Shown piece by piece: positions 31,668 to 46,663 of a stretch of 64,000 nt of DNA. Origin of the DNA: a bacterium (GTDB lineage Bacteria; UBA8248); the NCBI GenBank assembly GCA_965213625.1, contig CBDBZU010000004.1, positions 32,001 to 96,000 of the forward strand, given 5' to 3'. Each line of letters opens with the position of its first letter. Within the stretch, counting starts at the first letter, position 1. Under the pieces are notes generated by a model. The model was not told the DNA's origin, searched no databases, and was given only the letters and a program-made list of their open reading frames with translations. A program made the translations under genes and the position numbers.

Positions 31668-34007
31668 CTAGTCGCCGAGCGCTTGCCCGTGTTTCGTCCT
31701 GTCGAGCGTCAGCAGAAGCGGCGGTAGTAAAAAGAGGTCCGCAACGAGCGCAATGATGACCGTCATTCCGACCAGCAACCCGAGCGTCTGATTGGTCACT
31801 AGCCCCGATGCGCCAAAGACGAAAAACGCCACCGCAAAAATCAAGGTTGTGCTTAGCAGCGGTTTTCCAACGAGTTCGAAAGTCGGCGCGATAGCTTCGG
31901 AAGGTGATTTGCCCTCTGCGCGTGATTTCAGGTATTTGGACAGGAGATGGATGGTATCGTCCACAACGATGGCAAACGCTATCGCGGTAACGATTGACGC
32001 CGCAATATTCACGTTTCCCGCGGCGTAACCCCAAGCCCCCAGGGACATGATTGCCGGAACGAAATTGGGTATTAAGCTCAGAAGCCCCAAACGAAGGCTT
32101 TTGAATGCAAAAATCAACAGCAGTGAGACGATCGAGATCGCGATGAAGGTTCCGAGTAACATGTTCACGATGTTTCTCATCACCGAGTAAGCGCCGACAA
32201 TGGCGACGCCGGTCGCTCCGGTTCGCATTTGCGGCGCATTTTTTCCCAGCCAGGCAGAAGCGCGATTGTCCAGCTCGATTTGCTCTTTGACCGACATTCC
32301 CCCGATCACGACGGTCATCCGGGTCGCCGAACGCTCAAAGTTGATGAGATTGTTTATGTCGCGGCCGACCGGTAGAGAGAACTCGTATAAAAGCAGGTAT
32401 TGCGCCGCAAGGTCGGAGTTTGCCGGCAGTGCATAGGTGCCTTTTGCGTCATTGCGCAGATTCTGATTAATCCGCTTCATGATATCAGCAATCGAGGTGA
32501 CGTGAGAAACTTCAGGCTGTTTGCGAAGCCAATTGGCGAACGAATCCACCCGATGCAGGTACTCAATGTCGGTGATTCCCCCTGCACGCCCGGAATTCAG
32601 TGAATACTCAAAGGAATCCAGCCCGGAAAAGTTCTCGTTTATGAAATCCCCCGATCGGCGCAACTCGTAGCTTTCGTTAAGCAGCTTGGCATTGTTGTTG
32701 TCATTCAGTTTAATTCTCGAGACGCCATATGCGCTCACCAGAACGAGTATGACGAAAGTCCAAAGCAACAAGGTGCTTTTGGAAACGACGAAATCTCCCA
32801 AACGCTTGAAAGTTTTCGTTCCGTTTCTCTTTTCGGCGGGCGCCCGCATGGGCATCATCGCCAACAATGCGGGCAAAAGCGTGACCGCGTAAGCGAATGC
32901 GCACATGGCGCCGAACGCAACGATATTTCCCATCACTCGAAACGGGGGCATTTCCGAGAAATTCAGGCTCAGAAAACCGATCATGGTGGTGAGCGAAGTG
33001 AGGAATATCGGATGGGCATTGATTTGCAGGGAATGAACAACAGCGGCTTTACGTTCCATTCCACGAAGCATTCCATCGGTCATTCCTTCGATCAGATGGA
33101 CGGAGTGTGCGATGGCAATCGCCATCAGAACGAATACCGCGGCGCCGCTTTCCGCATAGAATTTCAATCCGAACCAGCCGGTTAAACCGAAACTCGATGC
33201 CATCACCGCAATTATCATCGCAATAATTCCACAAACGCTCCAAACCGAACGCAGCAATAGAATGGCCACCAGAACCATCATCGCAAACGCGATGGGCGCC
33301 AAAAAGGACATATCTTCATTCAGCGCCTCGCGAACCGCCCGATTCAACAACAGTTCACCATAGATGTGATATTCGATATCGGGGTTGGACGCGCGCTGTT
33401 TGTTGACGAGACCGTAGAGACCGTCGACCACTTCGATTTTGCGCTGTTTCCTTTTCTCATCGGGAATAGCCAGGCTCACGATCAGCCCGGCTACACGACC
33501 GTCGCGAGAGACGAAACGGCCGGCCGTTTCCTGTGTGGTGAGCGCAATCTCTCGAACACGGGCGAGTTTGACCTCGTCCAGCGAAGCCGCATCGTCGACC
33601 AGCTGCTCGACAATCAGTGTGTCCTCGATTCCCTCGGTGTGTAGGTAATTGGTTATCGAATCGACACGGACAGAATAAGGCGTTTGCCACAACACCTCCG
33701 TCAGTTGCTCAATCGCAACGAGTGCTTTGCGCGTGAAAACGGTGTCGTTCGGCGGGGCGACAATGACGAGCACGCTGTCCGACACTGCGTAGGTCTTTTC
33801 GAAATCGTCGAGTTTGATCAAATGCGGATCATCTTCATCGAAGTGATTTCGGATGCCTACATTGACGGTAATCAGGTGCTGCACTCCCGCGGCGAGAACC
33901 GCGGTCACCAGGAATGTGACGGCTATCGTCCAGAAGTATTGACCCACTACCAGATCGAAAAAACCGGACTTCGACTTGGATGTCATGTTATGTGCGCTTT
34001 CCCGCAT
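31668..34007 (-). CDS. MMPL / RND-superfamily lipid transporter
   Basis: 779 aa with two repeats of TM + periplasmic domain + 5 TM; PIFLTSLTTMIGFLSL and AIVVDDTIH motifs. Confidence 0.88.
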   Translation of the reverse strand: MRESAHNMTSKSKSGFFDLVVGQYFWTIAVTFLVTAVLAAGVQHLITVNVGIRNHFDEDDPHLIKLDDFEKTYAVSDSVLVIVAPPNDTVFTRKALVAIEQLTEVLWQTPYSVRVDSITNYLHTEGIEDTLIVEQLVDDAASLDEVKLARVREIALTTQETAGRFVSRDGRVAGLIVSLAIPDEKRKQRKIEVVDGLYGLVNKQRASNPDIEYHIYGELLLNRAVREALNEDMSFLAPIAFAMMVLVAILLLRSVWSVCGIIAMIIAVMASSFGLTGWFGLKFYAESGAAVFVLMAIAIAHSVHLIEGMTDGMLRGMERKAAVVHSLQINAHPIFLTSLTTMIGFLSLNFSEMPPFRVMGNIVAFGAMCAFAYAVTLLPALLAMMPMRAPAEKRNGTKTFKRLGDFVVSKSTLLLWTFVILVLVSAYGVSRIKLNDNNNAKLLNESYELRRSGDFINENFSGLDSFEYSLNSGRAGGITDIEYLHRVDSFANWLRKQPEVSHVTSIADIMKRINQNLRNDAKGTYALPANSDLAAQYLLLYEFSLPVGRDINNLINFERSATRMTVVIGGMSVKEQIELDNRASAWLGKNAPQMRTGATGVAIVGAYSVMRNIVNMLLGTFIAISIVSLLLIFAFKSLRLGLLSLIPNFVPAIMSLGAWGYAAGNVNIAASIVTAIAFAIVVDDTIHLLSKYLKSRAEGKSPSEAIAPTFELVGKPLLSTTLIFAVAFFVFGASGLVTNQTLGLLVGMTVIIALVADLFLLPPLLLTLDRTKHGQALGD

Positions 34008-34689
34008 GATTTGATTCCTTCTCGCGGTGCCGACTCCTGCAGCATCCGGTAATCTTTTTTCCCATACCTCTATAATATCTGCCTTCTATTGTATGGCTTC
34101 ATGTCCATGGCCGCCACTTTTTTTATGACAGGTTGGCTTCTCGCGGGAGCAGACCATCAGACAACTCCGTCGAGACGACGGATCAGCGGTTCTGTGACGG
34201 AGATCCAGTCGTCCCGCATCGGGCGCGCCGACGCGCTGCTCCTCACGAGCACCCATGCCCGCGATTTGCTTAAAGGCGGGGGCGCGACGCTCGTCGGGGA
34301 GACGGTCGAGACGTTCGATTGCGCGGGCGCGCGCTGCGTCGCTCGGAACGGGACGGCGGTCTCAGCCTCTCCTGGGCGCACAACGTAATACGCCCCGGCC
34401 ATGAATGCGCTCGCCTTGACGGCCCAACAGGCACCATTGAGAAAGATCCGGTGTCGGTGTATATTTGTCGAATATTCGTTCAGCTTTGAGAAAAAGCGTC
34501 GTCTCATGAGAAAATGCGAACCAGCCGCTTTAGGCGCATATTCTCCTTGTGATTTGCTGCCTTGGGGAAAGCGGCGAGTCGCCCCTTCCGGCATCCTCTA
34601 GTGGAAACCTCCTGAAGAAAGAATGCAGCATCTCCCTCTTGCCGGGAGGGGCGGCGCTCGAACACATCATTTTCATTCGGGAGGGAAAG

Positions 34690-34960
34690 ATGCGGAAATC
34701 AGATATCTCGACCCATGTCGCAGATAGGGTCTCTCTCTAAGGCCGAAGCGCGAAGCGCTGTGGATGAGCTATTGGGTATCGTCGGGGATGCTCTCGCTCG
34801 CGGGGAGAGGGTCTACCTACCGGGTCTCGGGGCGTTCTCGCTCAGGAGCCGCCCGGCGCGGCGGGGACGGAACCCACGCACGGGGGAGCGCATCGACTTG
34901 CCGGCTTCGAAGACGCCACATTTCAAGGCCGCCAAGGCGCTCAGTAACACAGTGCGCTAA
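34690..34960 (+). pseudogene. HU/IHF-family DNA-binding protein, frameshifted
   Basis: MRKSDISTHVADRVSL stops in the (CT)4 run at 34731-34738. The next frame continues SKAEARSAVD...GLGAFSLRSRPARRGRNPRTGE. Confidence 0.85.
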
Positions 34961-35544
34961 CACCGGCGTCGAATAGGTCCCCGGTGATGCCGTCCGCGAA
35001 GCAACCCAAGGCCTTCCATCGCCGAATCGCTAGTAAGGTGCGCTTAGCGCGTCGTAGTTTCGCTCTTGATCCGGCCCGGGAGTTTCTCCGCGAAGCCGAA
35101 ACAAGCCGCCAGCGTCGCCGAAATCGGCCACCTCCGATTCGACCGTATTATGCGTTGAGGCGTAAGGGCTACACAAGTCCTCACGCATTATATGCGCCGC
35201 GCTCTCGATACCCGGGGTTTTGAGCCCCCTGGGATGGAAATGCGACGCCCCAAAACGCCGTCTCCGGTGGCGCGGTTCGCCACGAGAGCATTATCCTGAG
35301 CCACTTGATCGTCAAGGGACGCAGCCGCAACACCGACCGGCTGTCCCTCACACCAGAGGAATGGCCCGCCGTCTGCGATGCGCATGAGTATCTATTCGCG
35401 CCGGAAGATTTCGAGGCATGGGACCGCAGGACACGCTCCCTGAGTGACCTCGCACGCGCAATTCGGCGAAAAAACGCTTGTTAATGAATTATTTTTCACT
35501 GTCGGGAGGGAATCGGGACATCCCGTTCTCGCTGAACCGCTCGC

Positions 35545-35892
35545 TCAGACCCACGAACGACCCGACGAACACGCCCGTACGGCCGTCGCTCTCCTCGAAA
35601 TCAGCGTAGGTGAGGCCCGCCGCCAGCCGGGGGTTCCCGTCCGTGTCCTGGCGGCTGGACAGGGCCCCCAAGAATTTTCCTGGTGGCGGACTGTATCGAG
35701 TGTGCGGATGCGGCCATCGTGGTAGCCCACGTCGATGCTGTGGACGCCATCGACAGAGGTCGTCCGCGTGCGAAACGGTTGAGGTGTGGGCGTAAGCGTG
35801 GGCATCGAAATTAATAGCGGAGAGGAACCGCCACCGAAACAGCCCGCCGTCAGCGAAACCAGTAACAGGGTAATCAGTGTCCGGAGATTCAT
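35545..35892 (-). pseudogene. Probable lipoprotein remnant
   Basis: Signal peptide with lipobox LTAGC; the downstream sequence appears degenerate. Confidence 0.4.
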
Positions 35893-36267
35893 ATGCAGTC
35901 CTTTGCACGAAACGAGCCAGTGAAAAAACGGGGCGTTCGATCCTCTTCCCCGGTAGTCCCGACGACAGGAACGCCGGGAACGACCGCCAGATGTCCAGTA
36001 TACACTATCAATATGGGGTTGGTGTGAAGATTCGGGATGATGACTATGATAACATAATCATCGTGGAGAGATATGCCAAATTTTCAAGTGGCACACGAAC
36101 CTTCAGCGGCAAGGAATTCAGGTCGACCTCTCTGTCGCTCGAGGCTCTGCAAGCTCGCTTACGATCTTTCAGGCGACGTTCCTCGTACAAGTCACATCCG
36201 AAACCCGAATAGAAAGAGAATCTGCCTGCATACACGAAATGTTCGAGAGGAGGAAACGCTGCCCTGA

Positions 36268-37332
36268 ATGGCCAAAACCCGCGCCTCCCCTCAAATAAGC
36301 CTCATTTTCACGGTACCGGGCCCCTGCAGCCGGGCACCGCCCTTGGACCCGATAACGTTCGTTCGATCATTAGGGGCGATCTTTCATTCTGCATCAAAGA
36401 CTGAAGAAGTGATGCGAAAGGAAATGGAATTCACCGACTTCAAGCGCCACTACTTGGGCGAGTTTCCGAACAAAGATGCGCCGGCGCAGGACGTTTTACG
36501 TTATGGACGCGTAAAGCTGGAATCAGGAGCCACCCAGGCCCATGGCCACACGCAAGGGGCTTGGAGTTTTTCGTTCACGCCGAGCGGTGATAGGATTGAA
36601 AGATTCACACCGCCCTTGGTGAGTAAACGCCTCATGAACAAATGGTTGCGTCGTCCGGGAGCTCCGCACACGATTCCCTTGAATCCCGAGGAAATGAATG
36701 AAGTCTGCTCTGTCCTGGCGGGAGAGTTCGACGAACCCGATGAGGTTTTCATGAATTTCATGGTGCGCCTCCCCGGCTGGGCGAGACTCGAGTTCGAAAA
36801 CGTCGACAGATTGTTCGGGGAATTGACGAGGGGCCATGCGCCCCTGCTTGACTTCGTTAAAATGTGCCGGGTGCGGGTATATGACGATCGGCGAACCTTG
36901 GAGATTGCCTATCGCCGCCTTTGGCTGCTCGACAGCGTTCGAATACGTGCGGACGCTGAAGAGGAGGAGTGGCGTTTTCGTGCGATTGAGGCGGCGTCCC
37001 GGGTTCTCGAGAGCCGCGGGGAGCGTGTCCAGGCTTGCCGTTTCATAGTCTTGCTCCAGGGGTTCCTGTGGCTGGCGTTTCAGGCGTTTTCGGGTGCATC
37101 GCTAGTGTATCTGTGGAACATCGGGCGGACGGATACGAATCTCCTATGGGCGGGCGCCGCGGCCTTCTCGCTGTCTGCTGCCACGTTCGCGCCCGGCCTT
37201 TTGAAGCGGATGTTTCCCCAGGATACGGAAGTAGAGGCGAGAAGCCCACTGCGCCTGTTTCTGGGTGTGGTTTCTATGCTTTCGAGTATCGTTGCGGCTG
37301 TAGCGGTGATACTCGGCCTCGCCGGCATATGA
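36268..37332 (+). CDS. Hypothetical protein with three C-terminal transmembrane helices
   Basis: 354 aa ORF; true start may be ~36412. Confidence 0.55.
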   Translation: MAKTRASPQISLIFTVPGPCSRAPPLDPITFVRSLGAIFHSASKTEEVMRKEMEFTDFKRHYLGEFPNKDAPAQDVLRYGRVKLESGATQAHGHTQGAWSFSFTPSGDRIERFTPPLVSKRLMNKWLRRPGAPHTIPLNPEEMNEVCSVLAGEFDEPDEVFMNFMVRLPGWARLEFENVDRLFGELTRGHAPLLDFVKMCRVRVYDDRRTLEIAYRRLWLLDSVRIRADAEEEEWRFRAIEAASRVLESRGERVQACRFIVLLQGFLWLAFQAFSGASLVYLWNIGRTDTNLLWAGAAAFSLSAATFAPGLLKRMFPQDTEVEARSPLRLFLGVVSMLSSIVAAVAVILGLAGI

Positions 37333-37365
37333 GCGCATGGCGTCGTTTATTCGGTAAACTTGAAA

Positions 37366-38010
37366 ATGACCACCGGGACGAGGGGAGCTAGAAACGCCCA
37401 AAGGAAGTTCGGTGACCTCCCAGTACCTTTGGGTCTGTCTCTGCTCGGCAACCTTCACCAGATTCGTTTTGCGAGGATGCACTGCATACTCGAGAGATGG
37501 GCGGATCGATACGGGCCGATCTATTGCATATCGCTGGGCAGGCGAAATTACGCGGTGGTCTCGGAACCGGACGCCATAGCCCATATACTGGGGAAGCGGC
37601 CCCACGGCTTCCGGCGCGAGAAGTCGAGCACCTGAGACGGTGCTGGGAACGCGCGGCCGATCATGGAGAGGCGATAGACCCCTACCGTGACCTCATGCGC
37701 TTCACCGCCCGTGTCACTATGCAATTCGTCTTCAGCGTCGACCTCGGCGCGCCCGAAAGTCCCGGCGCATCCATCCGTCACCATCTCGCCGCCATATTCC
37801 CGGTGTTGCACCGCCGTCTGAATCTGCCCTTACCCTTTTGGAGGTGCTTCCGGCTGCCTTCGGATCGAGCGCTCGAACGCGCTCTTGCCGGACTGAAAGC
37901 CGAGGTTCGCGACATGATCCGCACTGCTAAGGAACGAATGGAAGAAAACCCGCGGCGCAGCGTTACGCCTGGGAATTTCATCGAAGCCTCAATCGCCGCC
38001 AGAGGATGTG
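37366..38010 (+). pseudogene. Cytochrome P450 remnant (internally deleted, 3'-truncated)
   Basis: LPVPLGLSLLGNLHQI...WADRYGPIY...VVSEPDAIAHIL, then in another frame DLMRFTARVT...FRLPSDRALERAL. No ExxR or heme Cys. Confidence 0.75.
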
Positions 38011-38297
38011 CACGAGCGCCTCTCCTTCACCATGGCACCCGAGAAACTTATCGTACGCATAAGGCGCAGACAAGGCGCTTCATCCGGTTCGAATTCATCC
38101 CTAATCCCTCGCCGTGCCCAGGGCTACCACGCGGACGGTCGCGATGCCCGGAGGTGAAGATTATCTTCACGCTTTTTCAACAGCCCCGTCAGTGCCTGCC
38201 AACAAACGCCGGCACATTCCATACTTATCCGATAGCACCGGGAAAAGAAGCGTTCGGGAGCTTCAGCTTCCCTCTTAGGAGAGCGTCGTTATCGTTT

Positions 38298-39183
38298 GTC
38301 GGGTAGGGCACTGGCGCGCGCACCTTTAGGCGGAGGGTTTCCAGCCCTGCCCTTTCGGTTCCAGGGTGGGGTCACAGTTCCGCCTTGAGCCACGTTTCCA
38401 GCCGCCCCCCCTAAAATTCCGTACGTCGAGTTTTCCTCGGTACGGCTTCCAGCAACAGGCACCTCCCAGTTTGGAGTGGAGTATTCCGCGGGAACACCGG
38501 GGTTTAAGACCGACCCTGCCATACCCCTCGGCGGGTCCAACGTTTACTCCGCCCTCAGGCTTCACCATGTGCAGAGCGCTTTCCCCCGCCTCTGTGTGCG
38601 GGCTGCCCGCCACGGTGTCGCCACCTGTGCCCAGAGGTCCTCGCTCCGGGTGGGTTGTGTTCTCCCACCCTTCATCGCTTGGCGACCTCGTCCGCCAGTC
38701 TGGAGGTCTCCGTCTCACTTCCCGGCGCCCCGGTTATAAAGACGGTCTTCGACATTCACAGGGTCATCCTGTCATGACCTCCACACCTTCCGGACTTTCA
38801 CTGCGCTACTTTCGAGTATTGCCGCCTTCAATACGCCGGGAGCCCCGGTTCGTGCGCCTCAGTTTCTTCTGCACCGGCACTGGCCATCGGTTAGGAGGGA
38901 GACCCTTGGCAACTCCATCTACCCCGCAAATCAGCTTCACGCGGGAAGTCCTTGTTTCGACGCTTCATCCGTTCACTTTCGTTACGGTCCTACTCGTTGC
39001 TTGCCTGCCGGGCTGATCGCACACGAGCGGCACGGCGGCCCCTCTGTACCCCGAGGCTTTTACGTCCGGGCTTCCAGAGCGCCGGGTCGCCCCGTACGTC
39101 TGCTGGATATGACTACGGCGCCAAACTGAGAATTGCGCCGGCGGGACTTTCACCCGCTAGTACCGCAGTTAGTCTCGCTGCAC
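38298..39183 (-). ncRNA. ORF-less group II intron (intron C), apparently complete
   Basis: 5' end GTGCAGCGAGACTAAC, domain V AAGCCGTACCGAGGAAAACTCGACGTACGG, an extended domain VI and 3' end CCCTACCCGAC. No RT ORF in 886 nt. Confidence 0.8.
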
Positions 39184-39235
39184 CCCTCCCGCAGGACTTT
39201 CACCAGCTGCACTGACACCAGTTAGCCTGGCGCAC
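39184..39235 (-). ncRNA. 5' fragment of another group II intron (intron B), interrupted by intron C
   Basis: GTGCGCCAGGCTAACTGG...GTGAAAGTCC, a typical 5' end and domain I start, directly abutting the 5' end of intron C. Confidence 0.65.
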
Positions 39236-39599
39236 ACCCCATCGCTTGGTCGGGTAGGAGGGGGCATTGCTGCGCCCCTCCCCCCACAGACCCGAGCGTG
39301 CGCGATTGACACACTCGGTTCCTCACCTGACAGGTTCGCTCAAGGGGTTGTCACCCTTGCTCCGCAGGTCGAGGCATTCCTCGCCTGTTTGGCTATCCAC
39401 TGCTGTTTCGTGTACGTGTTGGTGGAACTCAGAGTTTCCTCCAGCGTTTCCCATCAGTGGCTCTGTACAGATGACGCCCCGCTTCCCTCCAGTGGGTCCC
39501 GGTGGCCACGGTTCCCCGCCTTCAGCGGTACTATCAGGGCGCTACGACTTCCTGCCCTTCTCTAATCGGGACGAGCAAGTCAAGTTCCTCTGCCCTGTT

Positions 39600-39810
39600 T
39601 TTTCCAGCTCTGTTCCGCCTTTGGTTTTAGACGATACTCCATGGGGGTCTCGCTTCTCTACGTGATCGGCACCCGGTCCGGGGCCGTCAACAGGATGGGA
39701 TCGGAGAACGAGGTGGAACAATCTCGCATACGTCCTCGCACCGTCACCGACGGAGCGGAACGGGGCAGGAAGCGAACTCACCTCGTCCCTCGTCCCCACG
39801 GGAGCATCCT
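39600..39810 (-). ncRNA. Putative bridge/seek RNA of the IS110 element (boundaries approximate)
   Basis: Stem-internal loop-stem whose loop strands match both flanks of the insertion site. A second loop matches the predicted circle junction. Confidence 0.7.
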
Positions 39811-39867
39811 CCGCCAGATCGGAAGCTGCCGTAGTATTCGGATTCTTCTCCTCTTGGATTCCCAAGG

Positions 39868-40908
39868 TCAGGCGGCTACGTCATCCACGCCGTCGCGTTT
39901 CCAGCGGAACTCGCTGCCATCCATCCATATGCGGTGCATGATGACGCCGAGCCGGCGGGCAAGCGCAACCTTCGCGCGCGCCTTGCCGCGACGCTTCGCC
40001 ACACCCATCGCCCAGGCTTTCAGCCATGACCACCGCGTCGTGCGCCCGAGCAAGGCGTTGGCGGCTTCGTAGAGCGCCGCGCGCATCATCGCGTCGCCGC
40101 ACTTGGAGATTCTTCCCGTTCGGTCGACCTCTCCGGATTGCCATTTGCGAGGCGCAAGCCCGAAGTGCGCGCCCACCGAGCGCGAACGAGCAAAACGCGA
40201 TGGCACGTCGACGCTCGCCCGGAAGGTGAGCGCCGTCACCGGACCCACGCCGGGGACCGTCATCAGGCGACGGCAGACCGGGTCGACGCGCACCGCCTCC
40301 AGCATCATCCTGTGCAGCCGGACGTATTCCGCCAGCAACGCCGCTCGCGCCCGCAGCATCGGCTTCACCAGGCCCGCCAGCGCCGGGCGCTCCGCGACCA
40401 GTCCAAGCACCCGCGCCTCCAGCCCGCGGCGGGTGACCTTGCCCATCTTCAGCCCGAAGTTGCGCAGCGTGCCCCGGATGTTGGCCTCGGCGTCGCACAA
40501 CTGCTTCAGCATGAACCTGCGGTTGGCGAGGAGCATTCGTTTCTCCTGGCTCGACACCGTCTTCACGTGCACCGGGCGAATCAGGTTCGCGCGAACCAGC
40601 TGGGCGATCCCGCGCGCGTCGTCACGGTCGCTCTTGTTCACCGTCGCAGATAGTATGGCCTTCAACTGCCGCGTCTCGGCGCAAACCACCGGGAGCCCGG
40701 CCTCGGCCAGGCCGTCATGGAGCCACTGCGACAGCGGCCCCGCCTCAAGACAGATGCGCGTCACGCCGAAGTCCAGCCCGGTGAAGAACGCCGCGAGGGC
40801 CGCGGGTTCGCTCGCGACCTTCGCCTCCCGGACGATCCCGCCGTCCACGTCCACCACGCACACGCTCGTCCACTCCAACGACACGTCGAGTCCTGCAAAG
40901 TAGTTCAT
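39868..40908 (-). CDS. IS110 family transposase (DEDD recombinase)
   Basis: FAGLDVS, CLEAG, KSDRDDARGIA, VPGVG, GLAP..WQSG, ISKCGD; GGAGGAG RBS. Confidence 0.95.
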   Translation of the reverse strand: MNYFAGLDVSLEWTSVCVVDVDGGIVREAKVASEPAALAAFFTGLDFGVTRICLEAGPLSQWLHDGLAEAGLPVVCAETRQLKAILSATVNKSDRDDARGIAQLVRANLIRPVHVKTVSSQEKRMLLANRRFMLKQLCDAEANIRGTLRNFGLKMGKVTRRGLEARVLGLVAERPALAGLVKPMLRARAALLAEYVRLHRMMLEAVRVDPVCRRLMTVPGVGPVTALTFRASVDVPSRFARSRSVGAHFGLAPRKWQSGEVDRTGRISKCGDAMMRAALYEAANALLGRTTRWSWLKAWAMGVAKRRGKARAKVALARRLGVIMHRIWMDGSEFRWKRDGVDDVAA

Positions 40909-41634
40909 GACTGCTCCTCCTGCGGGCGCGTAGAGACCGGACCATCCCGGCCTCGCCTCGATCATATGACAGAGGAACATCCCCTACACGCGGTAGTTCG
41001 AGGGCCGACCCGATTATCCCATCTCGCATCTCCTTCGGCTTATTGTTTTCACCAGCCGGTTCCGCGGGCGCCTGCCGGGTTCGTGTCCGCCATGGGGCGC
41101 TCCCGCCGCCGTGCAAGCCCGGCGACGGACCGGGGTCTGGATTTTCATGCTGGCCGTCCCCTTTCCAGCGTTCTTGCCCACGGGCAAGAGCAGGATCTCC
41201 CAGGTTCCCTGGCGACCCATCCCCGTAACTTTGCGCCGGTCCACGACCCCGGACGACCCGTTGCGCCTCGCCGATAGCGGCGCTTCCGGTGCTGCCCCCA
41301 CACGATTAACAATGAAGGCGTCGTCGATTCACCGATTTCGAGGCTTACCCCACCGCTTCGTCACCTGCTGTCTACGCTTCACGACGCACGTTGCCGCACG
41401 CCATGCAAGACTCGCTTCCGGCTGGCTGGCTTCGCCTTTGCCGGGCGGGAGTCGAACCCGCTGGGTCGCTACGAGAGGTTTCAGGTCATGGCGTCCTCCT
41501 CTCCAGGGCTTAGCCTGGCGCAATAAACGTTCGGCGACAGGGTGATGGCGCCGGGTTTACTCATTCCGGACTTAAGCAAAAGGTTCTTGTTGAGGGGCTG
41601 GTAACATCATCCGGCATGTGGTAATCATGTCGGC

Positions 41635-43982
41635 ATGAAGATTTGCACGGAAGGTGTCGAGACGAAGCCGGCGTTGGTCGAGAGGCCGAATGAGCCATGG
41701 CCTCATTCCCCTGATTTGTCCACAACCGCAGAGGCGTACTGGCGTTCGCAGTACGAGCGCGAGCGTGCGCGCGCGGAGGCGGCGGAGGCGCGCTGCGAGG
41801 AGTTGCGGTGGGCGGAAGTGGATTCGCGCGCCCGTGCGGGTAGGCTGAAGCGGCAGTTCGACGTCTGCCGGAAGAAGCTCGAGGAGGCCGCCGGTGAGGC
41901 GAAGGAAGCCCGCCGCGCGGCGAAGGACGCGCTGTCGCTCAAGACGGAAGTGGAGCGGCTGGAGAAGCTGCTTGCGGAAGCAGGGGTCGAGCCGCGCAAG
42001 CGCAGCCCGCTCATGTCGCTGCGCATGGAGGTCGTCCGGCTTCGCAAGGAGCTCTCGGGCGTGCCGTCGCCGGGGGAGGCGGGGCGGGTGCGCAAGGCCC
42101 TGGAGGAGCGCAGGGAGACGATTCATGCCCTGCGCAAGGAGGTCGGCCGGCGGGAGAAGGAGGTCGCCCGGCTGGAGGAGCGACTGGACCGGGAGAAGCA
42201 GAAGTCGGCGGCTCACAAAGAGACCATCCGGGGCCTGGACGAGGAGGCCATCGGGCTCTACAGGAAGTTGCGGCGATTGCGCGACCAGGCGGAGGTGGTC
42301 GAGTCGTTGTCCGCGGAGGTTTACCGTCTTAAAGTCTCCCTGGGAGCCGCAGGCATCGCGACCGAACGACTGAAGGCGCGGTTGTTGCGCGCAATGGAGG
42401 CGGCGCGCTCGAGGTCGCCGTCCCGTGCGGACGAGGAACTGCGCAAGGCCCTGGGGAGGTCGCGGCGCCAGAAGACGGCGCTCGGGTCCCTGTCCAGGGA
42501 GAATGCGCGGCTTCGCCGGGCGCTACGCAAGTCAGAGACCCGCCGGGCGCGTCTGGAAGCCGAGCTCGCGAAGCTTCGCGCCACGGGAGTGGTGCTGGCG
42601 AAGAGGCTGTTCGGGCGCAAGAGCGAGCGGCAGGAGAAGCCGCGCTCGGAGCGCAGGCGCGGCGGGCAGCCCGGCGCCCGGGGCCATGGCCGCACCCCTC
42701 GTCCCGCGCTCGAGGAGAGGACGGAAGTTCGCAACCCGCCGCCCGCGTCTGCGCCTGTTGCGGGCAGCCCTACGTGGCCAACGGCGCGCGTGTATCGAGC
42801 CTCGTCGAGATCGAGGTCTCGGCCCACAAGCGCGTCATCCGCCGTCCGCGGTGGCGCCGGGGGTGCGGTTGCGCGTCGTCTCCCATGGAGGTGTCGGCGC
42901 CGCCCGCGCCGCGCCTGTTCGCGGGCACGTCCTTCGGGACGAGCGTATGGGCGCGCTTCCTGTTCGAGCGCTACGCCTGCTTCCGCCCGCTGCGCCGGGT
43001 TGCCGCGTGGCTCTCCGACCAGGGGCTTACCGTCTCGGCGGGGACGCTGGGTGACAGCGCGCACCGCTTCACGCCCCTGTTCGAGCCGCTGGCCGGGGCG
43101 ATCCTCGCCCGCCAGAACGAGTCTACGCTGCGCCACGGGGACGAGACGACCTGGCGGATACAGTCGCTTCGCGAGCAGGGGCGATCGAGCCGCGCCTGGC
43201 TGTGGACATCGGTAAGCACGGACTCCGTCTACTTCCACGTCGACCCCTCGCGGGGCGCCGGGGTCGCGATGAAGCTGTTCGGCGCGGCCGGCCGCCATAC
43301 GGTCCTCGTCTGCGACCGCTACAGCGCCTACAAGAAGCTGGCGCGCGAACTCGACGGCGCCGTAATCCTATCCTTCTGTTGGAGCCACCAAAGAAGAACC
43401 TTTATCGACAGCGCGGCCGGCGAGGCGCGCCTGACGCCGTGGTGCGAGAGATGGATCGGGCGGATCGCCTTGCTCTACCGCCTGAACGAGGCGCGCCTGG
43501 CCCGTTACGACTCAGGTCTCGAACACCAGGACGCGGCGTTCGACGCGGCGCACGACGAATTGAAGAAGGCGCTCGAGGGCCTGTTCGCGCAGGCCCGACG
43601 CGAACTGGCCGCCCTGTCGGCGCAGGCGCCCGAGGGCAAGGCGCTTCGCTCGCTGCTGAACCACCGCGAGGGGCTGAGCGTCTTCCTCGAGCGCCCCTGG
43701 GTGCCGACAGATAATAACGCCATTGAGAGAGTGCTCAGGGGTCCCGTGATCGGGAGGCGGCTCTCGTTCGGCTCCGACAGCGAGGCCGGCACCGGGTTCA
43801 CGGCGATGATGTACTCCGTCCTCGGAACGCTCTCATCGAACGGCATCGACCCGCTCCGCTGGCTCGATGCATGGCTCACCGCCTGCGCGCAGAACGGCGG
43901 CCGGGCGCCCGGGGACCTCTCCGCATGGCTGCCCTGGTCGATGAATGCGGAGCGCAGGCGCGCCCTCACGGCGCCGGGATGA
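41635..43982 (+). pseudogene. IS66 family transposase with a long coiled-coil N-terminus, frameshifted near 42740
   Basis: LFGRKSE...GGQPGARGHGR in frame 1. HGDETTW, VCDRYSAY, CWSHQRR and TDNNAIERVLR in frame 2 (42774-43982). Confidence 0.85.
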
Positions 43983-43986
43983 CGCC

Positions 43987-44859
43987 GTGATCGAGTGCCG
44001 CTACTACGGACGCGACTTCACGACTGATGAGATGACGCTGCTGCGCGCGCTGATCACCGGCCCTCCCGCGCTCAATCGCAACGTGCTCTCCAAGGAGTTC
44101 TGCCGGCGCATCGGCTGGTTCAAGCCCGACGGCGGACTCAAGGACATGATGGCCCGGGTGACCATGCTCGCCATGCACAGAGACGGCCTGATCACGCTTC
44201 CCCCGCCGAAGCGCCCGCGGCACCCGGCCCGGCCGATCGTCTTCGGGCCAGACACCGAAGCGCCTCTCATCCCGGCGCCCGAGACCCTCGACGAGGTCCG
44301 TCCCCTCGGGATGCGCATCGTCGTGCGTGGAACCCGCGAGGGAAGGCTCTGGAACGAGTTCGTCGCCCGCTACCACTACCTCGGCTACAAGACCCTCGTC
44401 GGCGCCCAGATGCGCTACGCCGTACACGACCGCGACGGCAGGCCCCTCGCCATGCTCGGCTTCTCCACCGCCGCGTGGAAGCTCGCCCCGCGCGATGCCT
44501 TCATCGGCTGGACGCCCAGGCTGCGCGAGAAGAACCTTCCCCTCGTGGTCGACAACCCGAGGTTCCTCATCCTGCCATAGATCAAAATCCCCAACCTCGG
44601 CTCGCATCTCCTCGCCATCCTTCGCAGGCGACTGCCCGACGACTGGACCGAGCGCTATGGCACGACCCCCGTCCTCATCGAGACCTTCGTCGAGACGCCA
44701 CGCTACACCGGCGCCGTCTACAGGGCTTCAGGATGGATTCACGTCGGAACCACACAGGGACGCGGACGCTACGACAGGTACAAACGCCACGACAAACCCA
44801 AAAAGGATGTCTGGCTACGTCCCCTCCGCAACAACTGGAAGAAAGTCCTCAACCGCTGA
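43987..44859 (+). pseudogene. DUF4338 (DruA-like) protein with an internal stop
   Basis: LWNEFVARYHYLGY, WKLAPRDAFIGW, RFLILP. A TAG at 44578-44580 is followed by in-frame IKIPNLGSHLL...ETFVE...GTTQGRG. Confidence 0.82.
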
Positions 44860-45302
44860 AACAACTCCCATCACCCTGTCGCCGAACGGTTACCTACCCG
44901 GCCCCCGACAGGCGCACCCTTGGATACGCAGGCGTTGTAACGAATCCGCTTGCGGTTTGATTACGGGTTATGGAGGGTGGATCTCGGAGACTCGGTAAAA
45001 GAAAATGATATCAATATGTTAGATGGATATGTGTCCAATCGAAACTAGTGGATGCACCTGATTTCTCGAAAAACCCCGTGAATTTGTCTAATTTTATCGA
45101 TATTTCCAGATATTATTATTTGCATATTTCATGATCTGCGCCTGGACGAATCGCTCACCCGCCTCCATCGGTCCGCGCCCGCTCCATCTCCTGAAAAACC
45201 AATGGCCGACGGACGGCCTTCTCAGCATACCCCATCGCCCCGAAAATCCCGCCACGGCAAATGCGGGTCGAACCCGACCGAGGAGGTCAGTTCCGACCGA
45301 GA

Positions 45303-45406
45303 AGGGAGGAACTGACCGACTGAGAAGGGAGGAACTGACCGACCGGGGAGGGAGGAACTGACCGACTGAGAAGGGAGGAACTGACCGACCGGGGAGGGAG
45401 GAACTG
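45303..45406 (+). repeat. Five tandem 23-bp units with core AGGGAGGAACTG(ACCGAC)
   Basis: Cores at 45303, 45326, 45349, 45372 and 45395, with alternating linkers. An inverted copy GGTCAGTTCC lies just upstream. Confidence 0.9.
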
Positions 45407-45760
45407 CTTCGCCGGCCGACCGGGCAGGTCAATCGTGGCTGGGGAAGGAGCGGTTGTTGTTTGCGCGCACCGACCCAAACGATCGGCCCTTCCAACTTAC
45501 AGGCGCTCCCCTCCTCTCCCTTCACCGCGAATGCCCTCCCCGGTTCCAGGCCGGACCACCCACTCCATACGCATGAAACGTGGCGGCGCTCTCCGGTGAA
45601 GCCGCATCAAACGCCCCACCAGATACGATTTTGTCTCACCGAGGCGTTATGTTAGATTCATTCCATCATCTGGATTTAAAAGTTCGGCGAAAGTAATTCC
45701 GGGAGAAGACGAACTTCACGTCACCGCGCAGAAGCAGGCGGTGGAAACCCGAGGTTTCAC

Positions 45761-46663
45761 GTGGACCGAACCGACGCCCAAAAATCCCTCGACGCCCAGG
45801 ACGTGAAACGCATCGCCCGCGAGTTGGGCGCAGACCTCGCAGGCGTCGCATCGGCGGAGGATTTCGCGGAAGCCGCTCCCGGCTGCCGACCCAGAGACTT
45901 GTTCAACATGGCGAACAGCGTCGTCGTCATCGCCAAACGCATCCCCTTCGCCGCGGCCACGCCCTATCCCAGCATCGGCGCGATGGAATTCGGCGAATAC
46001 ATCCCGGAAAATTTCCTGAACGAAGCCTGCTACCGCCTCTCGCTTCATCTCGAAGACGCGGGCTATCTCTCGGGCGCCACGCCATGCGGGCGCGACATCA
46101 CGAGCTTCCGCGTGGAAGAAGAAGACCCCGAGCCCAGGGTTTTCCTCCAGGGTTCCTTCGATTTGCGGCTCGCGGCGGTCAAGGCCGGCCTCGGGCATAT
46201 CGGAGCCAACAACTGCCTCATCACGCCCAAGTACGGCTCCCGCGTCCGCCTGGGCGCGGTGCTCACCGAGGCGCGCCTCGCGCCTGACCCGCCCAACCAG
46301 TACGGCGTTGTTCCTGAGTTCTGCCGTGAATGTGGCTTTCGCTGCGTGGAGGCCTGCCCCGCGAACGCGCTCCCGGGCGACGGCACGGTCGATCACTACC
46401 GCTGCATGGTCATCCGGCCGGATCTGGTCGCGCCCGAAAAAGCCCTCACCCATTTCAAAAAACTGTTCCGGGGCAAGCCCCTCATCATGGCGGCCAAAGG
46501 CCTCTCCTACACTGACAGCCCGCCGCATGCCTGCAGCACCTGCATCGCCCTGTGCCCGATGGATCAGGGCCGCGATTTCGCAGATACGCCTTTTCACCGT
46601 GAATCCTGGTCCGATGAAGACGCGCGCAAGGTCATCGACCCGGCATTACTGGAGAATCCCTAG
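45761..46663 (+). CDS. QueG / reductive dehalogenase-like cobalamin Fe-S protein (paralog 1)
   Basis: ARELGADLAGV, AAVKAGLGHIG, YGSRVRLGAVLT, CRECGFRCVEACP, CSTCIALCP. Confidence 0.82.
   Translation: MDRTDAQKSLDAQDVKRIARELGADLAGVASAEDFAEAAPGCRPRDLFNMANSVVVIAKRIPFAAATPYPSIGAMEFGEYIPENFLNEACYRLSLHLEDAGYLSGATPCGRDITSFRVEEEDPEPRVFLQGSFDLRLAAVKAGLGHIGANNCLITPKYGSRVRLGAVLTEARLAPDPPNQYGVVPEFCRECGFRCVEACPANALPGDGTVDHYRCMVIRPDLVAPEKALTHFKKLFRGKPLIMAAKGLSYTDSPPHACSTCIALCPMDQGRDFADTPFHRESWSDEDARKVIDPALLENP

What the first reader, a model, noticed from the sequence alone, without database searches (positions are those of the whole stretch)
39548..41029. IS110 bridge/seek RNA with readable guides programmed against a group II intron
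Seen: the reconstructed empty target (minus sense) is GAGATGCG-AGA-GAAGGGCAGGAAG. The right-end non-coding region folds as an outer stem (GGGACGAGGTG/CACCTCGTTCT) and an inner stem. One internal-loop strand is CTTCCTGCCC (39763-39772), the 10-nt complement of the right target flank (39548-39557). The other is ATGCGAGA (39722-39729), identical to the left flank plus core (41022-41029). A second loop has ATCCCATC and TAGA, matching the predicted circle junction GATT-AGA-TGGGAT. Established: IS110/IS1111 recombinases use such a bispecific ncRNA. Inference: an intact system with an AGA core, targeting the DII/DIII region of a group II intron as a safe haven.
Basis: partly seen in the sequence, partly recalled or inferred. 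Interest (0 to 1): 0.82.

Follow-up and report, generated by a model that had tools for sequence, protein, structure and literature searches.

The report
RNA-guided IS1111-type element inside an intron
This is an intact insertion sequence of the known IS110/IS1111 RNA-guided kind whose guide RNA spells out the exact spot where it sits, inside a group II intron; the mechanism is already known, and only the choice of an intron as landing site is unusual.

Summary
The element is an IS1111-group member of the IS110 family. It has a 346-aa DEDD transposase, 11-bp subterminal inverted repeats and a two-loop bridge/seek RNA downstream of the gene.

Guide function is supported by natural covariation. 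Across 14 close copies the guide columns vary in 15 of 19 positions, against 33 of 158 elsewhere in the RNA. In 7 of 14 copies the right guide gives an 8-10-nt run with its own flank, against 3-5 for unrelated flanks. More distant homologues show compensatory guide/flank changes.

The core is the dinucleotide AG, not AGA. The element is 1466 bp including one core copy, and the empty site is GATGCG-AG-GGCAGGAAG. Contigs from two other runs carry exactly this uninterrupted site: a 1466-nt skip with 2 letters that fit either side.

The target does lie in a group II intron (Rfam 132 bits), in a copy that has lost its reverse-transcriptase gene. The domain is not determined, and "safe haven" remains inference. 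Verdict: a new member of a known kind with an unreported target class. Moderate to low interest.

The parts
41023..41024 (-). Left copy of the core dinucleotide AG (end of left target half LT ...GATGCG, 41030-41025)
   Evidence: All 12 close copies whose left end is on the contig, and 8 more distant copies, read NN-AG-ATGGGRT at the left junction.
39559..41022 (-). Body of the insertion sequence (1464 nt; 1466 with one core copy). Left end ATGGGATAATCGGG..., right end ...CCCGATTAGAGA.
   Evidence: Full-length alignment to 12 copies in other genomes at 85-95% nt identity. Contigs in X5 and X6 skip 39557..41022. Single copy in its own genome.
39557..39558 (-). Right copy of the core dinucleotide AG, followed by right target half RT GGCAGGAAG (39556-39548)
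41006..41016 (-). Left subterminal inverted repeat (TAATCGGGTCG), 6 nt in from the left end
   Evidence: I21: 11 nt, 91% complementary to 39563-39573. Conserved in relatives.
39563..39573 (-). Right subterminal inverted repeat (CGTCCCGATTA), 4 nt in from the right end
   Evidence: I21
39868..40908 (-). Transposase gene, 346 aa, preceded by GGAGGAG. Contains the GLAPRKWQSG motif.
   Evidence: Pfam PF01548 + PF02371. NCBIfam NF033542 'IS110 family RNA-guided transposase', 227.6 bits against a cut-off of 140. Translation. PDB relatives ISCro4 (9t56) and IS621 (8wt6), E about 1e-13.
39631..39807 (-). Structured core of the bridge/seek RNA (about 177 nt), closed by an outer helix 39807-39794 / 39646-39631
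   Evidence: Alignment of 15 homologues. RNAalifold. Pair counts: outer helix 13 pairs, 5 with changes on both sides; 95.9% of cells paired against 41-53% when the partner is slid by 1-3 columns.
39763..39772 (-). Right target guide (RTG) CTTCCTGCC+C. [quoted passage not shown]
   Evidence: I20. The column block is hypervariable in relatives and tracks their flanks.
39721..39729 (-). Left target guide (LTG) ATGCG+AG, identical to LT plus core, so it pairs with the bottom strand. It is followed by an invariant AT equal to the first two bases of the element.
39694..39701 (-). Right donor guide (RDG) ATCCCAT+C. It pairs with the element's left end ATGGGAT plus the G of the core.
   Evidence: L019/L020 carry ACCCCAT together with a left end ATGGGGT, a compensatory change. 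Nearly invariant in 15 homologues.
39653..39660 (-). Left donor guide (LDG) TAGAGA+AG, identical to the element's right end plus core
   Evidence: AGAGAAG is invariant in 15 homologues, and every right end found and 53 reads AGAGA-AG, except L030 (TGAGA-AG).
39779..39788 (-). 5' strand of the basal helix of the target-binding loop (partner 39715-39706)
   Evidence: helix 3: 9 pairs, 3 with changes on both sides, 97.8% of cells paired
41025..41548 (-). 5' part of the interrupted group II intron (target element)
   Evidence: RF02005 group-II-D1D4-6 at 41454..41237, 132 bits against gathering 49. 96-97% identical to two other copies in the genome starting at about 41548.
39249..39556 (-). 3' part of the same intron. 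The reverse-transcriptase ORF is deleted. D5/D6-like end at 39323..39249.
   Evidence: RF00029 32.4 bits, below gathering 40. Match to the paralogue is split around a 1254-nt gap, which in the paralogue holds a 446-aa RVT_1 ORF.

Best explanation
The region holds a complete IS1111-group insertion sequence of the IS110 family: 1466 bp counting one copy of its AG core, window 41022..39557, minus strand.

It encodes a 346-aa DEDD/Ser recombinase and, in its 309-nt right end, a two-loop guide RNA (bridge RNA or seekRNA).

The target-binding loop carries, 5' to 3':
[quoted passage not shown] The donor-binding loop carries, in the same order, ATCCCAT+C and TAGAGA+AG. These read the two ends of the element when they are joined in a circle.

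Recombination between circle (LD-AG-RD) and target (LT-AG-RT) at the shared AG gives exactly the junctions seen. In this lineage the target guides spell a 16-nt site, ATGCG-AG-GGCAGGAAG, inside a multicopy group II intron. The occupied copy is a derivative that has lost its reverse-transcriptase gene.

Shown here: the sequence anatomy, the covariation, and the empty site. Inferred from the family: RNA expression, circle formation and current activity.
For: Protein:
- PF01548 + PF02371.
- NF033542 at 227.6 bits against a cut-off of 140.
- GL-P----SG motif and 346 aa. Both fit the IS1111 description in PMC11187229, section 6.

Ends:
- 11-bp subterminal inverted repeats (I21).
- Left end 114 nt, right end 309 nt.

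Guides:
- A 10-nt and a 9-nt match to the element's own flanks.
- The order 'top-strand match 5' of bottom-strand match' is as described for IS1111 seekRNAs (PMC11187229, section 9).
- The core is included in the pairings, as described for IS621 (PMC11208160 passages).

Covariation:
- 8 distinct RNA variants occur among 14 close copies.
- Guide columns vary at 15 of 19 positions against 33 of 158 elsewhere (Fisher p = 8e-7). The rows are related, so this is not a true probability.
- The cognate right-guide run is 8-10 nt in 7 of 14 copies, against 3-5 with unrelated flanks.
- L023 and L025 each differ by one base and match each other's flank variant.
- Among distant homologues, L034 and L035 differ by one compensatory guide/flank pair, and L039 and L060 differ by a matching 1-nt insertion in guide and flank.
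- The donor guide covaries with the element's left end in L019/L020.

Scaffold: 10 of 42 pairs have changes on both sides, and 0 of 500 shuffles reach the observed covariation score.

Empty site:
- Contigs in X5 (2840 nt) and X6 skip 1466 nt with a 2-letter overlap.
- In its own genome the guide-defined 16-mer has no free perfect site. Its only 1-mismatch site is the same position in the paralogous intron, where 0.15 such sites are expected by chance.
- In X6 a contig bridges the left junction of a ~97%-identical copy on the same intron flank (record 22).
Against: - There is no direct evidence that the RNA is made or that the element moves. It is single-copy in this genome.
- No sigma-70-like promoter or terminator was found in 39500-41100.
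- RNA-library contigs (X15) cover only scraps of the element and cannot show transcription.
- Five of 14 related copies (L021, L022 on the right, L024, L027, L033 on the right) lie in flanks that their guides do not match.
- The base opposite the core A is a mismatch in the window's right target guide (C) and right donor guide (C), whereas many relatives have U there.
- The register of core pairing in the loop differs by one position between variants, which I cannot explain mechanistically.
- The donor-loop helices are only weakly supported (helices 6-9, mostly invariant).
- The only other intron copy in this genome that keeps the site carries A instead of G at the first RT position, so it is a near-cognate target, not a perfect one.
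Confidence: 0.88

Rival explanations
1. One reading: same kind of element, but with a 3-nt AGA core, boundaries 41021..39564, empty target GAGATGCG-AGA-GAAGGGCAGGAAG and circle junction GATT-AGA-TGGGAT.
For: AGA is present at both junctions. The 10-nt right-guide match also fits this model, because it lies wholly in the flank.
Against: The model predicts empty sites 5 nt longer than all three uninterrupted paralogous sites found. It also predicts a 1461-nt skip, whereas the observed skip is 1466 nt with a 2-letter overlap. It leaves GAA unpaired between core and guide, and it reduces the left donor guide to 4 nt although 8 nt match. The base after AGAGAAG varies among copies, while AGAGAAG itself does not (L030 alone reads TGAGAAG).
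Confidence: 0.03
2. A decayed or domesticated relic: the anatomy is that of an RNA-guided IS, but this copy no longer moves, and its place in the intron is a frozen accident rather than a maintained specialisation.
For: It is single-copy in the genome. There are no perfect free targets left in the genome. No promoter-like site was found. The host intron copy is itself degenerate, with its RT ORF deleted.
Against: The ORF is full-length and 93-97% identical to copies that are multicopy elsewhere, including seven loci in one genome. Guides match flanks perfectly, 16 of 16 positions plus the core overlap. Empty and occupied forms of the same intron site coexist in run X6, as expected for a recently mobile element.
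Confidence: 0.2
3. The guide/flank matches are coincidence or a by-product of shared repeats. The 3' non-coding region is just a conserved UTR or terminator region.
For: The single-sequence fold is only marginally better than shuffles (z = -1.89). Many 11-12-nt inverted repeats occur by chance in this GC-rich 1.5 kb.
Against: Guides covary with flanks across independent insertion sites. Variation is concentrated in the guide columns. Compensatory changes occur in two helices. The chance estimate for the 10-mer is about 3e-5.
Confidence: 0.01

Closest known systems
IS1111-group elements with 3' seekRNA (ISEc11, ISPa11, ISKpn4, ISPst6; Siddiquee et al. 2024, PMC11187229; sections 6, 9, 10, 12, 13 read)
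   Same: The transposase is the same size (346 aa against 330-350) and has the GL-P----SG motif. It has subterminal inverted repeats and a long non-coding region downstream of tnp. The RNA carries a top-strand match 5' of a bottom-strand match, and the two matches overlap in the target. Natural redirection happens by changes confined to the guide segments.
   Different: Different target (a group II intron site) and different ends and core (AG). The donor-reading loop is inferred here from sequence. No RNA or transposition data exist for this element. Phylogenetic placement inside the IS1111 clade was not tested.
IS621 bridge RNA system (Durrant et al. 2024, PMC11208160; Hiraizumi et al. 2024, PMC11208158; passages read)
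   Same: Two internal loops, each with a left guide that pairs the bottom strand and a right guide that pairs the top strand. A dinucleotide core is included in the pairings. The recombinase has DEDD and Ser catalytic features. The PDB chain 8wt6 matches at E = 1.4e-13.
   Different: IS621 encodes the RNA in the left end, with the left guide 5' of the right guide. Its core is CT, its subterminal repeats are short, and it targets REP sequences. Here the RNA is in the right end with the opposite guide order and an AG core. The invariant AT after the left target guide may play a handshake-like role, but that is my inference.
ISEc21 (IS110 family), which targets a conserved codon region inside IS3-family transposase genes (PMC11187229, section 12)
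   Same: An RNA-guided IS whose programmed target lies inside another mobile element.
   Different: ISEc21 has an upstream RNA and targets a protein-coding DNA transposon gene. Here the RNA is downstream and the target is in the ribozyme part of a retroelement.
IS4321/IS5075 (Tn21-family inverted repeats), attC-targeting IS1111 members, and REP-targeting IS110 members (cited in PMC11208160 references; PMC1525189 seen in a search listing only)
   Same: They prefer repeated, often mobile-element-borne, sequences as landing sites. Close relatives of this element sit in REP-like palindromes.
   Different: None of these targets is a group II intron.

Membership tests
IS110 family (RNA-guided DEDD transposase elements) | N-terminal RuvC-like DEDD domain plus C-terminal Tnp domain | tested here: met
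   PF01548 (E = 3.7e-12) and PF02371 (E = 2.9e-22). NF033542 equivalog at 227.6 bits against a cut-off of 140.
IS110 family (RNA-guided DEDD transposase elements) | Catalytic residues (D, E, D, D and the Ser of the SG motif) | tested here: inconclusive
   The SG motif GLAPRKWQSG is seen in the translation. The DEDD residues were read by eye only (FAGLDVS, CLEAG, KSDRDDA), with no residue-level alignment to IS621.
IS110 family (RNA-guided DEDD transposase elements) | Non-coding RNA with a target loop and a donor loop, each with two guides that include the core | tested here: met
   Strings. Covariation with flanks and ends. Scaffold helices.
IS110 family (RNA-guided DEDD transposase elements) | Insertion without target duplication; the same short core flanks both ends; precise empty site | tested here: met
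   AG lies at both junctions in every copy whose junction could be read. A 1466-nt skip with 2 ambiguous letters occurs in X5 and X6 contigs.
IS110 family (RNA-guided DEDD transposase elements) | Circular intermediate whose junction rebuilds a promoter | not tested
   No raw reads were available (contigs only). The linear sequence shows no sigma-70-like site. The junction itself was not scanned.
IS1111 group | Subterminal inverted repeats of 7-17 bp | tested here: met
   11 bp, 10 of 11 complementary, 6 nt and 4 nt in from the ends (I21). Conserved in relatives. Criterion from PMC11208160.
IS1111 group | Long right end carrying the RNA downstream of tnp; short left end | tested here: met
   Left end 114 nt (41022-40909), right end 309 nt (39867-39559). 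The RNA core lies at 39807-39631.
IS1111 group | Guide order: top-strand-complementary segment 5' of bottom-strand-complementary segment | tested here: met
   The right target guide (39772-39763) precedes the left target guide (39729-39723) in the RNA. Criterion from PMC11187229, sections 9 and 12.
IS1111 group | Transposase falls in the IS1111 clade of the family tree | not tested
   No tree was built. Only length (346 aa) and the GL-P----SG motif agree.
Group II intron (the target element) | Ribozyme domains D1-D4 recognised by a curated covariance model | tested here: met
   RF02005 at 132 bits against gathering 49, at 41454..41237.
Group II intron (the target element) | Catalytic D5/D6 | tested here: inconclusive
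   RF00029 at 32.4 bits (window) and 27.3 bits (paralogue), both below gathering 40.
Group II intron (the target element) | Intron-encoded reverse transcriptase in D4 | tested here: not met
   The window copy lacks it: a 1254-nt gap relative to the paralogue. The paralogue has a 446-aa ORF with RVT_1, E = 1.4e-34. The window copy is therefore an ORF-less derivative of an intron.

The most novel reading that the evidence does not exclude
This IS lineage has switched from the REP-like palindromes used by its close relatives to a conserved site in the ribozyme of a multicopy group II intron. The retroelement would then serve as its dispersal platform: each retrohoming event makes a fresh landing pad, and IS-bearing ORF-less intron copies could be carried along in trans. 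The same data show guide segments turning over far faster than the scaffold. That leaves room for a dedicated route of guide reprogramming, for example conversion after half-matched insertions, rather than plain point mutation.
Probability: 0.12. Interest if true: 0.6.

Novelty: new member of a known kind. Interest (0 to 1): 0.33.

Why it matters
The mechanism, RNA-guided recombination by IS110/IS1111 elements, has been established since 2024, so the finding adds no new principle. It offers three things:

- A cleanly resolved natural example with an AG core, in which all four guides, the empty site and the occupied site can be read.
- A set of at least 8 naturally reprogrammed guide variants on an almost identical scaffold. 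This could be useful for learning the rules of guide length, register and core mismatch in the less-studied IS1111 branch.
- A case of one mobile element programmed against the ribozyme part of another, a group II intron. I did not find this in three literature searches.

Tried and rejected
- Own-genome search for further copies of the IS: only the window copy.
- Metagenome scan with the window's right-guide context: 0 matches.
- Metagenome scan for the intron site with a gapped pattern: 3 matches, all in unrelated sequence, so chance hits.
- The same site pattern in 42 genomes of the family and 51 of the phylum: only the window's own genome. Genomes are incomplete, so absence is not shown.
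- Search for an AGA-model empty site in the genome of L025: nothing better than 3 mismatches. This was the first hint that the model was wrong.
- Rfam at E <= 1 over 34000-46000: no bridge or seek RNA family, only intron models.
- Single-sequence folds of the RNA (z = -1.89) and of the paralogous intron's 5' 670 nt (z = -0.65). They were too weak to assign the target to an intron domain, so DII/DIII stays untested.
- Promoter and terminator scan: none found.
- RNA-library run X15: contigs cover only 17 of 30 bins, at low depth and with differences. This gives no evidence for or against transcription. A part without cover is not a finding.
- Plasmid collection: the best protein identity is about 60%, annotated only as 'IS110 family transposase'. 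No named IS was obtained.
- Structure prediction, complex prediction, the search for homologous proteins and the search of protein representatives were not used. The protein family was already clear.
Full report
**What is in the sequence**

Read on the minus strand, the region holds an ORF at 40908..39868 preceded by GGAGGAG. It encodes 346 aa. The protein carries the two Pfam domains of IS110-family transposases (PF01548, PF02371). It scores 227.6 bits against NCBIfam NF033542, 'IS110 family RNA-guided transposase', whose cut-off is 140. Its nearest solved relatives are the ISCro4 and IS621 transposases, at E about 1e-13.

- ATGCGAGA at 39729-39722 equals the left flank 41029-41022.
- CTTCCTGCCC at 39772-39763 is the complement of 39557-39548. 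It is also listed as inverted repeat I20, 10 nt, 100%.
- ATCCCATC lies at 39701-39694 and TAGA at 39660-39657.

The element is single-copy in its own genome.

**The flanks are a group II intron**

- RF02005 (group-II-D1D4-6) matches 41454..41237 at 132 bits against gathering 49.
- A D5/D6-like match lies at 39323..39249, at 32.4 bits, below gathering 40.
- The genome holds other copies or fragments of the same intron at 88-97% identity.
- Only one of them, at G000:C4:3545930-3547984, runs through the insertion site uninterrupted.
- That paralogue has a 446-aa RVT_1 ORF. The window copy lacks it, with a 1254-nt gap in the alignment.
- The insertion point is 206 nt 3' of the Rfam D1-D4 match and about 100 nt 5' of the paralogue's ORF start.
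- Single-sequence folding could not assign a domain (z = -0.65).

**Boundaries and core**

A scan of 185,579 species' genomes with the transposase gave 55 loci. Twelve are full-length copies at 85-95% nucleotide identity, and one more (L030) aligns from element position 30 to the right end.

All of them read NN-AG-ATGGGRT... at the left junction, except L030, whose left junction was not read. All read ...GATTAGAGA-AG-N... at the right junction, except L030, which reads TGAGA-AG. The base after AGAGAAG varies, so it belongs to the target.

- in the window's own genome;
- in the genome of L019/L020;
- in the genome of L025-L029.

A model with a dinucleotide core AG fits all three in length, with 1-2 substitutions. 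In this model the target is LT-AG-RT and the circle is LD(...GATTAGAGA)-AG-RD(ATGGGRT...).

Public-run contigs settle the matter. In X5 (a 2840-nt contig, depth 222) and in X6, the intron continues from 39556 to 41023. It skips 1466 nt, with 2 letters that fit on either side. The empty site is therefore GATGCG-AG-GGCAGGAAG, and the element is 41022..39557 counting one core. A third joint, in X1 (39555 to 41022), corresponds to the paralogue allele.

**Guides under the corrected model**

- The right target guide CTTCCTGCC+C pairs with RT (9 nt) plus the core G.
- The left target guide ATGCG+AG equals LT plus core, followed by an invariant AT that equals the first two bases of the element.
- The right donor guide ATCCCAT+C pairs with the left end ATGGGAT plus the core G.
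- The left donor guide is TAGAGA+AG (8 nt, not 4) and equals the right end plus core.

Left guides that read the bottom strand, right guides that read the top strand, and a core included in the pairings are what Durrant et al. describe for IS621 (PMC11208160, passages). The order, with the top-strand match 5' of the bottom-strand match, and the downstream location are those described for IS1111-type seekRNAs (PMC11187229, sections 6 and 9).

Other IS1111-group features are present:
- subterminal inverted repeats of 11 bp, 10 of 11 complementary (I21);
- a 114-nt left end and a 309-nt right end;
- a 346-aa protein;
- the GL-P----SG motif.

**Covariation**

In the alignment of the 3' regions of the window and 13 close copies (14 rows, 8 distinct), differences pile up in the two target-guide blocks. 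Variable columns number 15 of 19 guide columns against 33 of 158 other columns of the RNA core. Fisher's test gives p = 8e-7, but the rows are related and I chose the guide columns from the window's match, so this illustrates the pattern and is not a true probability.

The longest exact Watson-Crick run between each copy's right-guide strand and its own core+RT is:
- 10 for the window, L019 and L020;
- 9 for L030;
- 8 for L026, L028 and L029;
- 5 for L023 and L025, each of which has a single mismatch and matches the other's flank allele with 8;
- 3-4 for L021, L022, L024, L027 and L033.

Against unrelated flanks the runs are 3-5.

On the left side, identities in the 7 nt next to the core are 5 for the window and 6 for the REP-type group. 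They are 5 for L020, L022 and L033, 4 for L019 and L027, and lower for L021 and L024.

Nine more distant homologues (54-79% protein identity) keep the scaffold and the invariant strings AGATTG, CCCAT (within the right donor guide, GA(T/A/C)CCCAT(C/G)) and AGAGAAG. Where their ends could be located, they again read LT-AG-ATGGGGT and ...ATAGAGA-AG-RT. Their right guides are the complement of RT followed by C-U, which pairs with the AG core:
- L034 and L035 differ by one compensatory guide/flank pair.
- L039 and L060 differ by a matching extra base in guide and flank.
- L037 pairs 9 positions, including one G-U.
- L038 and L061 match 6 and 8 nt that do not abut the core. L040's right end was not found.

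The donor guide also covaries: L019/L020 have ACCCCAT with a left end ATGGGGT, and the window has ATCCCAT with ATGGGAT.

In run X5 the IS contig shows six substitutions inside the right-guide block and a different right flank. Reconstructed by hand from the tables, the changed guide pairs with 9 consecutive bases of that flank, including the core G. The tables hide 85 rows, so this reconstruction may be incomplete.

**RNA scaffold**

RNAalifold on 15 sequences predicts two well-supported helices:
- an outer helix, 39807-39794 with 39646-39631, which encloses both loops;
- the basal helix of the target loop, 39788-39779 with 39715-39706.

Pair counts give 95.9% of cells paired, against 41-53% when partners are slid by 1-3 columns. 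Ten of 42 pairs have changes on both sides, and 0 of 500 shuffles reach the observed covariation score. The small helices of the donor loop are nearly invariant, so they are neither supported nor contradicted. Rfam 15 has no family that matches this RNA at E <= 1.

**Is the intron really the programmed target?**

- The 16-nt string defined by the two target guides has no free perfect site in the 4.15-Mb genome.
- Its only site with one mismatch is the same position of the paralogous intron, where 0.15 such sites are expected by chance.
- The perfect allele exists uninterrupted in contigs of two other runs.
- In X6 a contig bridges the left junction of a ~97%-identical IS on the same intron flank (record 22). 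The contig over the right junction has only about 30 flank letters and is not counted.
- Close relatives with other guides sit in REP-like palindromes and other sites.

So this lineage's guides are set for the intron. Whether that serves as a 'safe haven' is inference. Targeting of other mobile elements by this family is known: ISEc21 inserts in IS3-family transposase genes (PMC11187229, section 12).

I found no paper linking IS110/IS1111 targeting to group II introns:
- 'bridge RNA' + IS110 + 'group II intron': one unrelated paper.
- IS1111 + 'group II intron': 9 listings, none on this by title or abstract.
- 'IS110 family' + 'group II intron' + 'target site': 3 listings.

**What speaks against, or remains open**

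- No expression or mobility data exist for this copy.
- No promoter-like or terminator-like sites were found.
- The RNA-library contigs are uninformative.
- Five of 14 relatives sit in flanks that do not match their guides. These may be off-target or half-matched insertions, or later rearrangements. A 2026 preprint on half-match recombination was seen only as a listing.
- The window's guides mismatch the A of the core.
- The loop position that pairs with the core shifts by one between variants.

**Verdict**

The core, the boundaries, the empty site, the circle junction and one donor guide needed correction. This is a new member of a known kind with an unusual target.

Noticed in passing
window 38977-39159 (-) and 39184-39247: Directly after the 3' end of the interrupted intron lies a piece of a second, different group II intron (RF02003, 46.5 bits, just under gathering 49). 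The 64 nt next to the first intron's end recur elsewhere in the genome at 91%. The first intron therefore seems to sit in or beside another mobile element.
   Followed up: partly
window 39344-39379 (-) against L083:870-2210: The window's intron copy has lost about 1254 nt that in the paralogue encode a 446-aa reverse transcriptase (RVT_1). It is an ORF-less derivative.
   Followed up: yes
L004:1500-2010 (G000:C4:3427362-3427867): Another copy of the same intron ends abruptly about 20 nt before the IS target site and continues in unrelated sequence. A loose end at 41042 in run X1 shows the same break.
   Followed up: no
L021, L022, L024, L027, L033: These close IS copies lie in flanks that their own target guides do not match on one or both sides: right-side runs of 3-4 nt; L022 and L033 match on the left only. 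Possible causes are off-target or half-matched insertions, or recombination between copies.
   Followed up: partly
L039:1850 against L060:1078; L029, L030 against window: The loop position that pairs with the core shifts by one nucleotide between variants. L039 and L060 differ by one extra base in both guide and flank. L029 and L030 pair both core bases with C-U, whereas the window and L019 pair only the G.
   Followed up: partly
L025-L029, L023 flanks; G001:C1:564945-564973: The relatives in one genome sit in a REP-like palindrome (GTCGGCCTTC...GAAGGCCGAC). Seven loci of this IS were returned from that genome. An uninterrupted variant of the palindrome was found once.
   Followed up: partly
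run X15, joint 39552 to 41025: A contig from an RNA library carries a diverged version of the intron, with 5 other letters in place of the target site (tables 5 and 5c). This shows that the site itself varies among intron relatives.
   Followed up: no
window 41635-43215 (+): A 526-aa ORF lies divergent from the intron's 5' end. Its only hit is a weak coiled-coil-type Pfam match (Cnn_1N, 30.9 bits). The intron does not appear to interrupt a recognisable gene.
   Followed up: no
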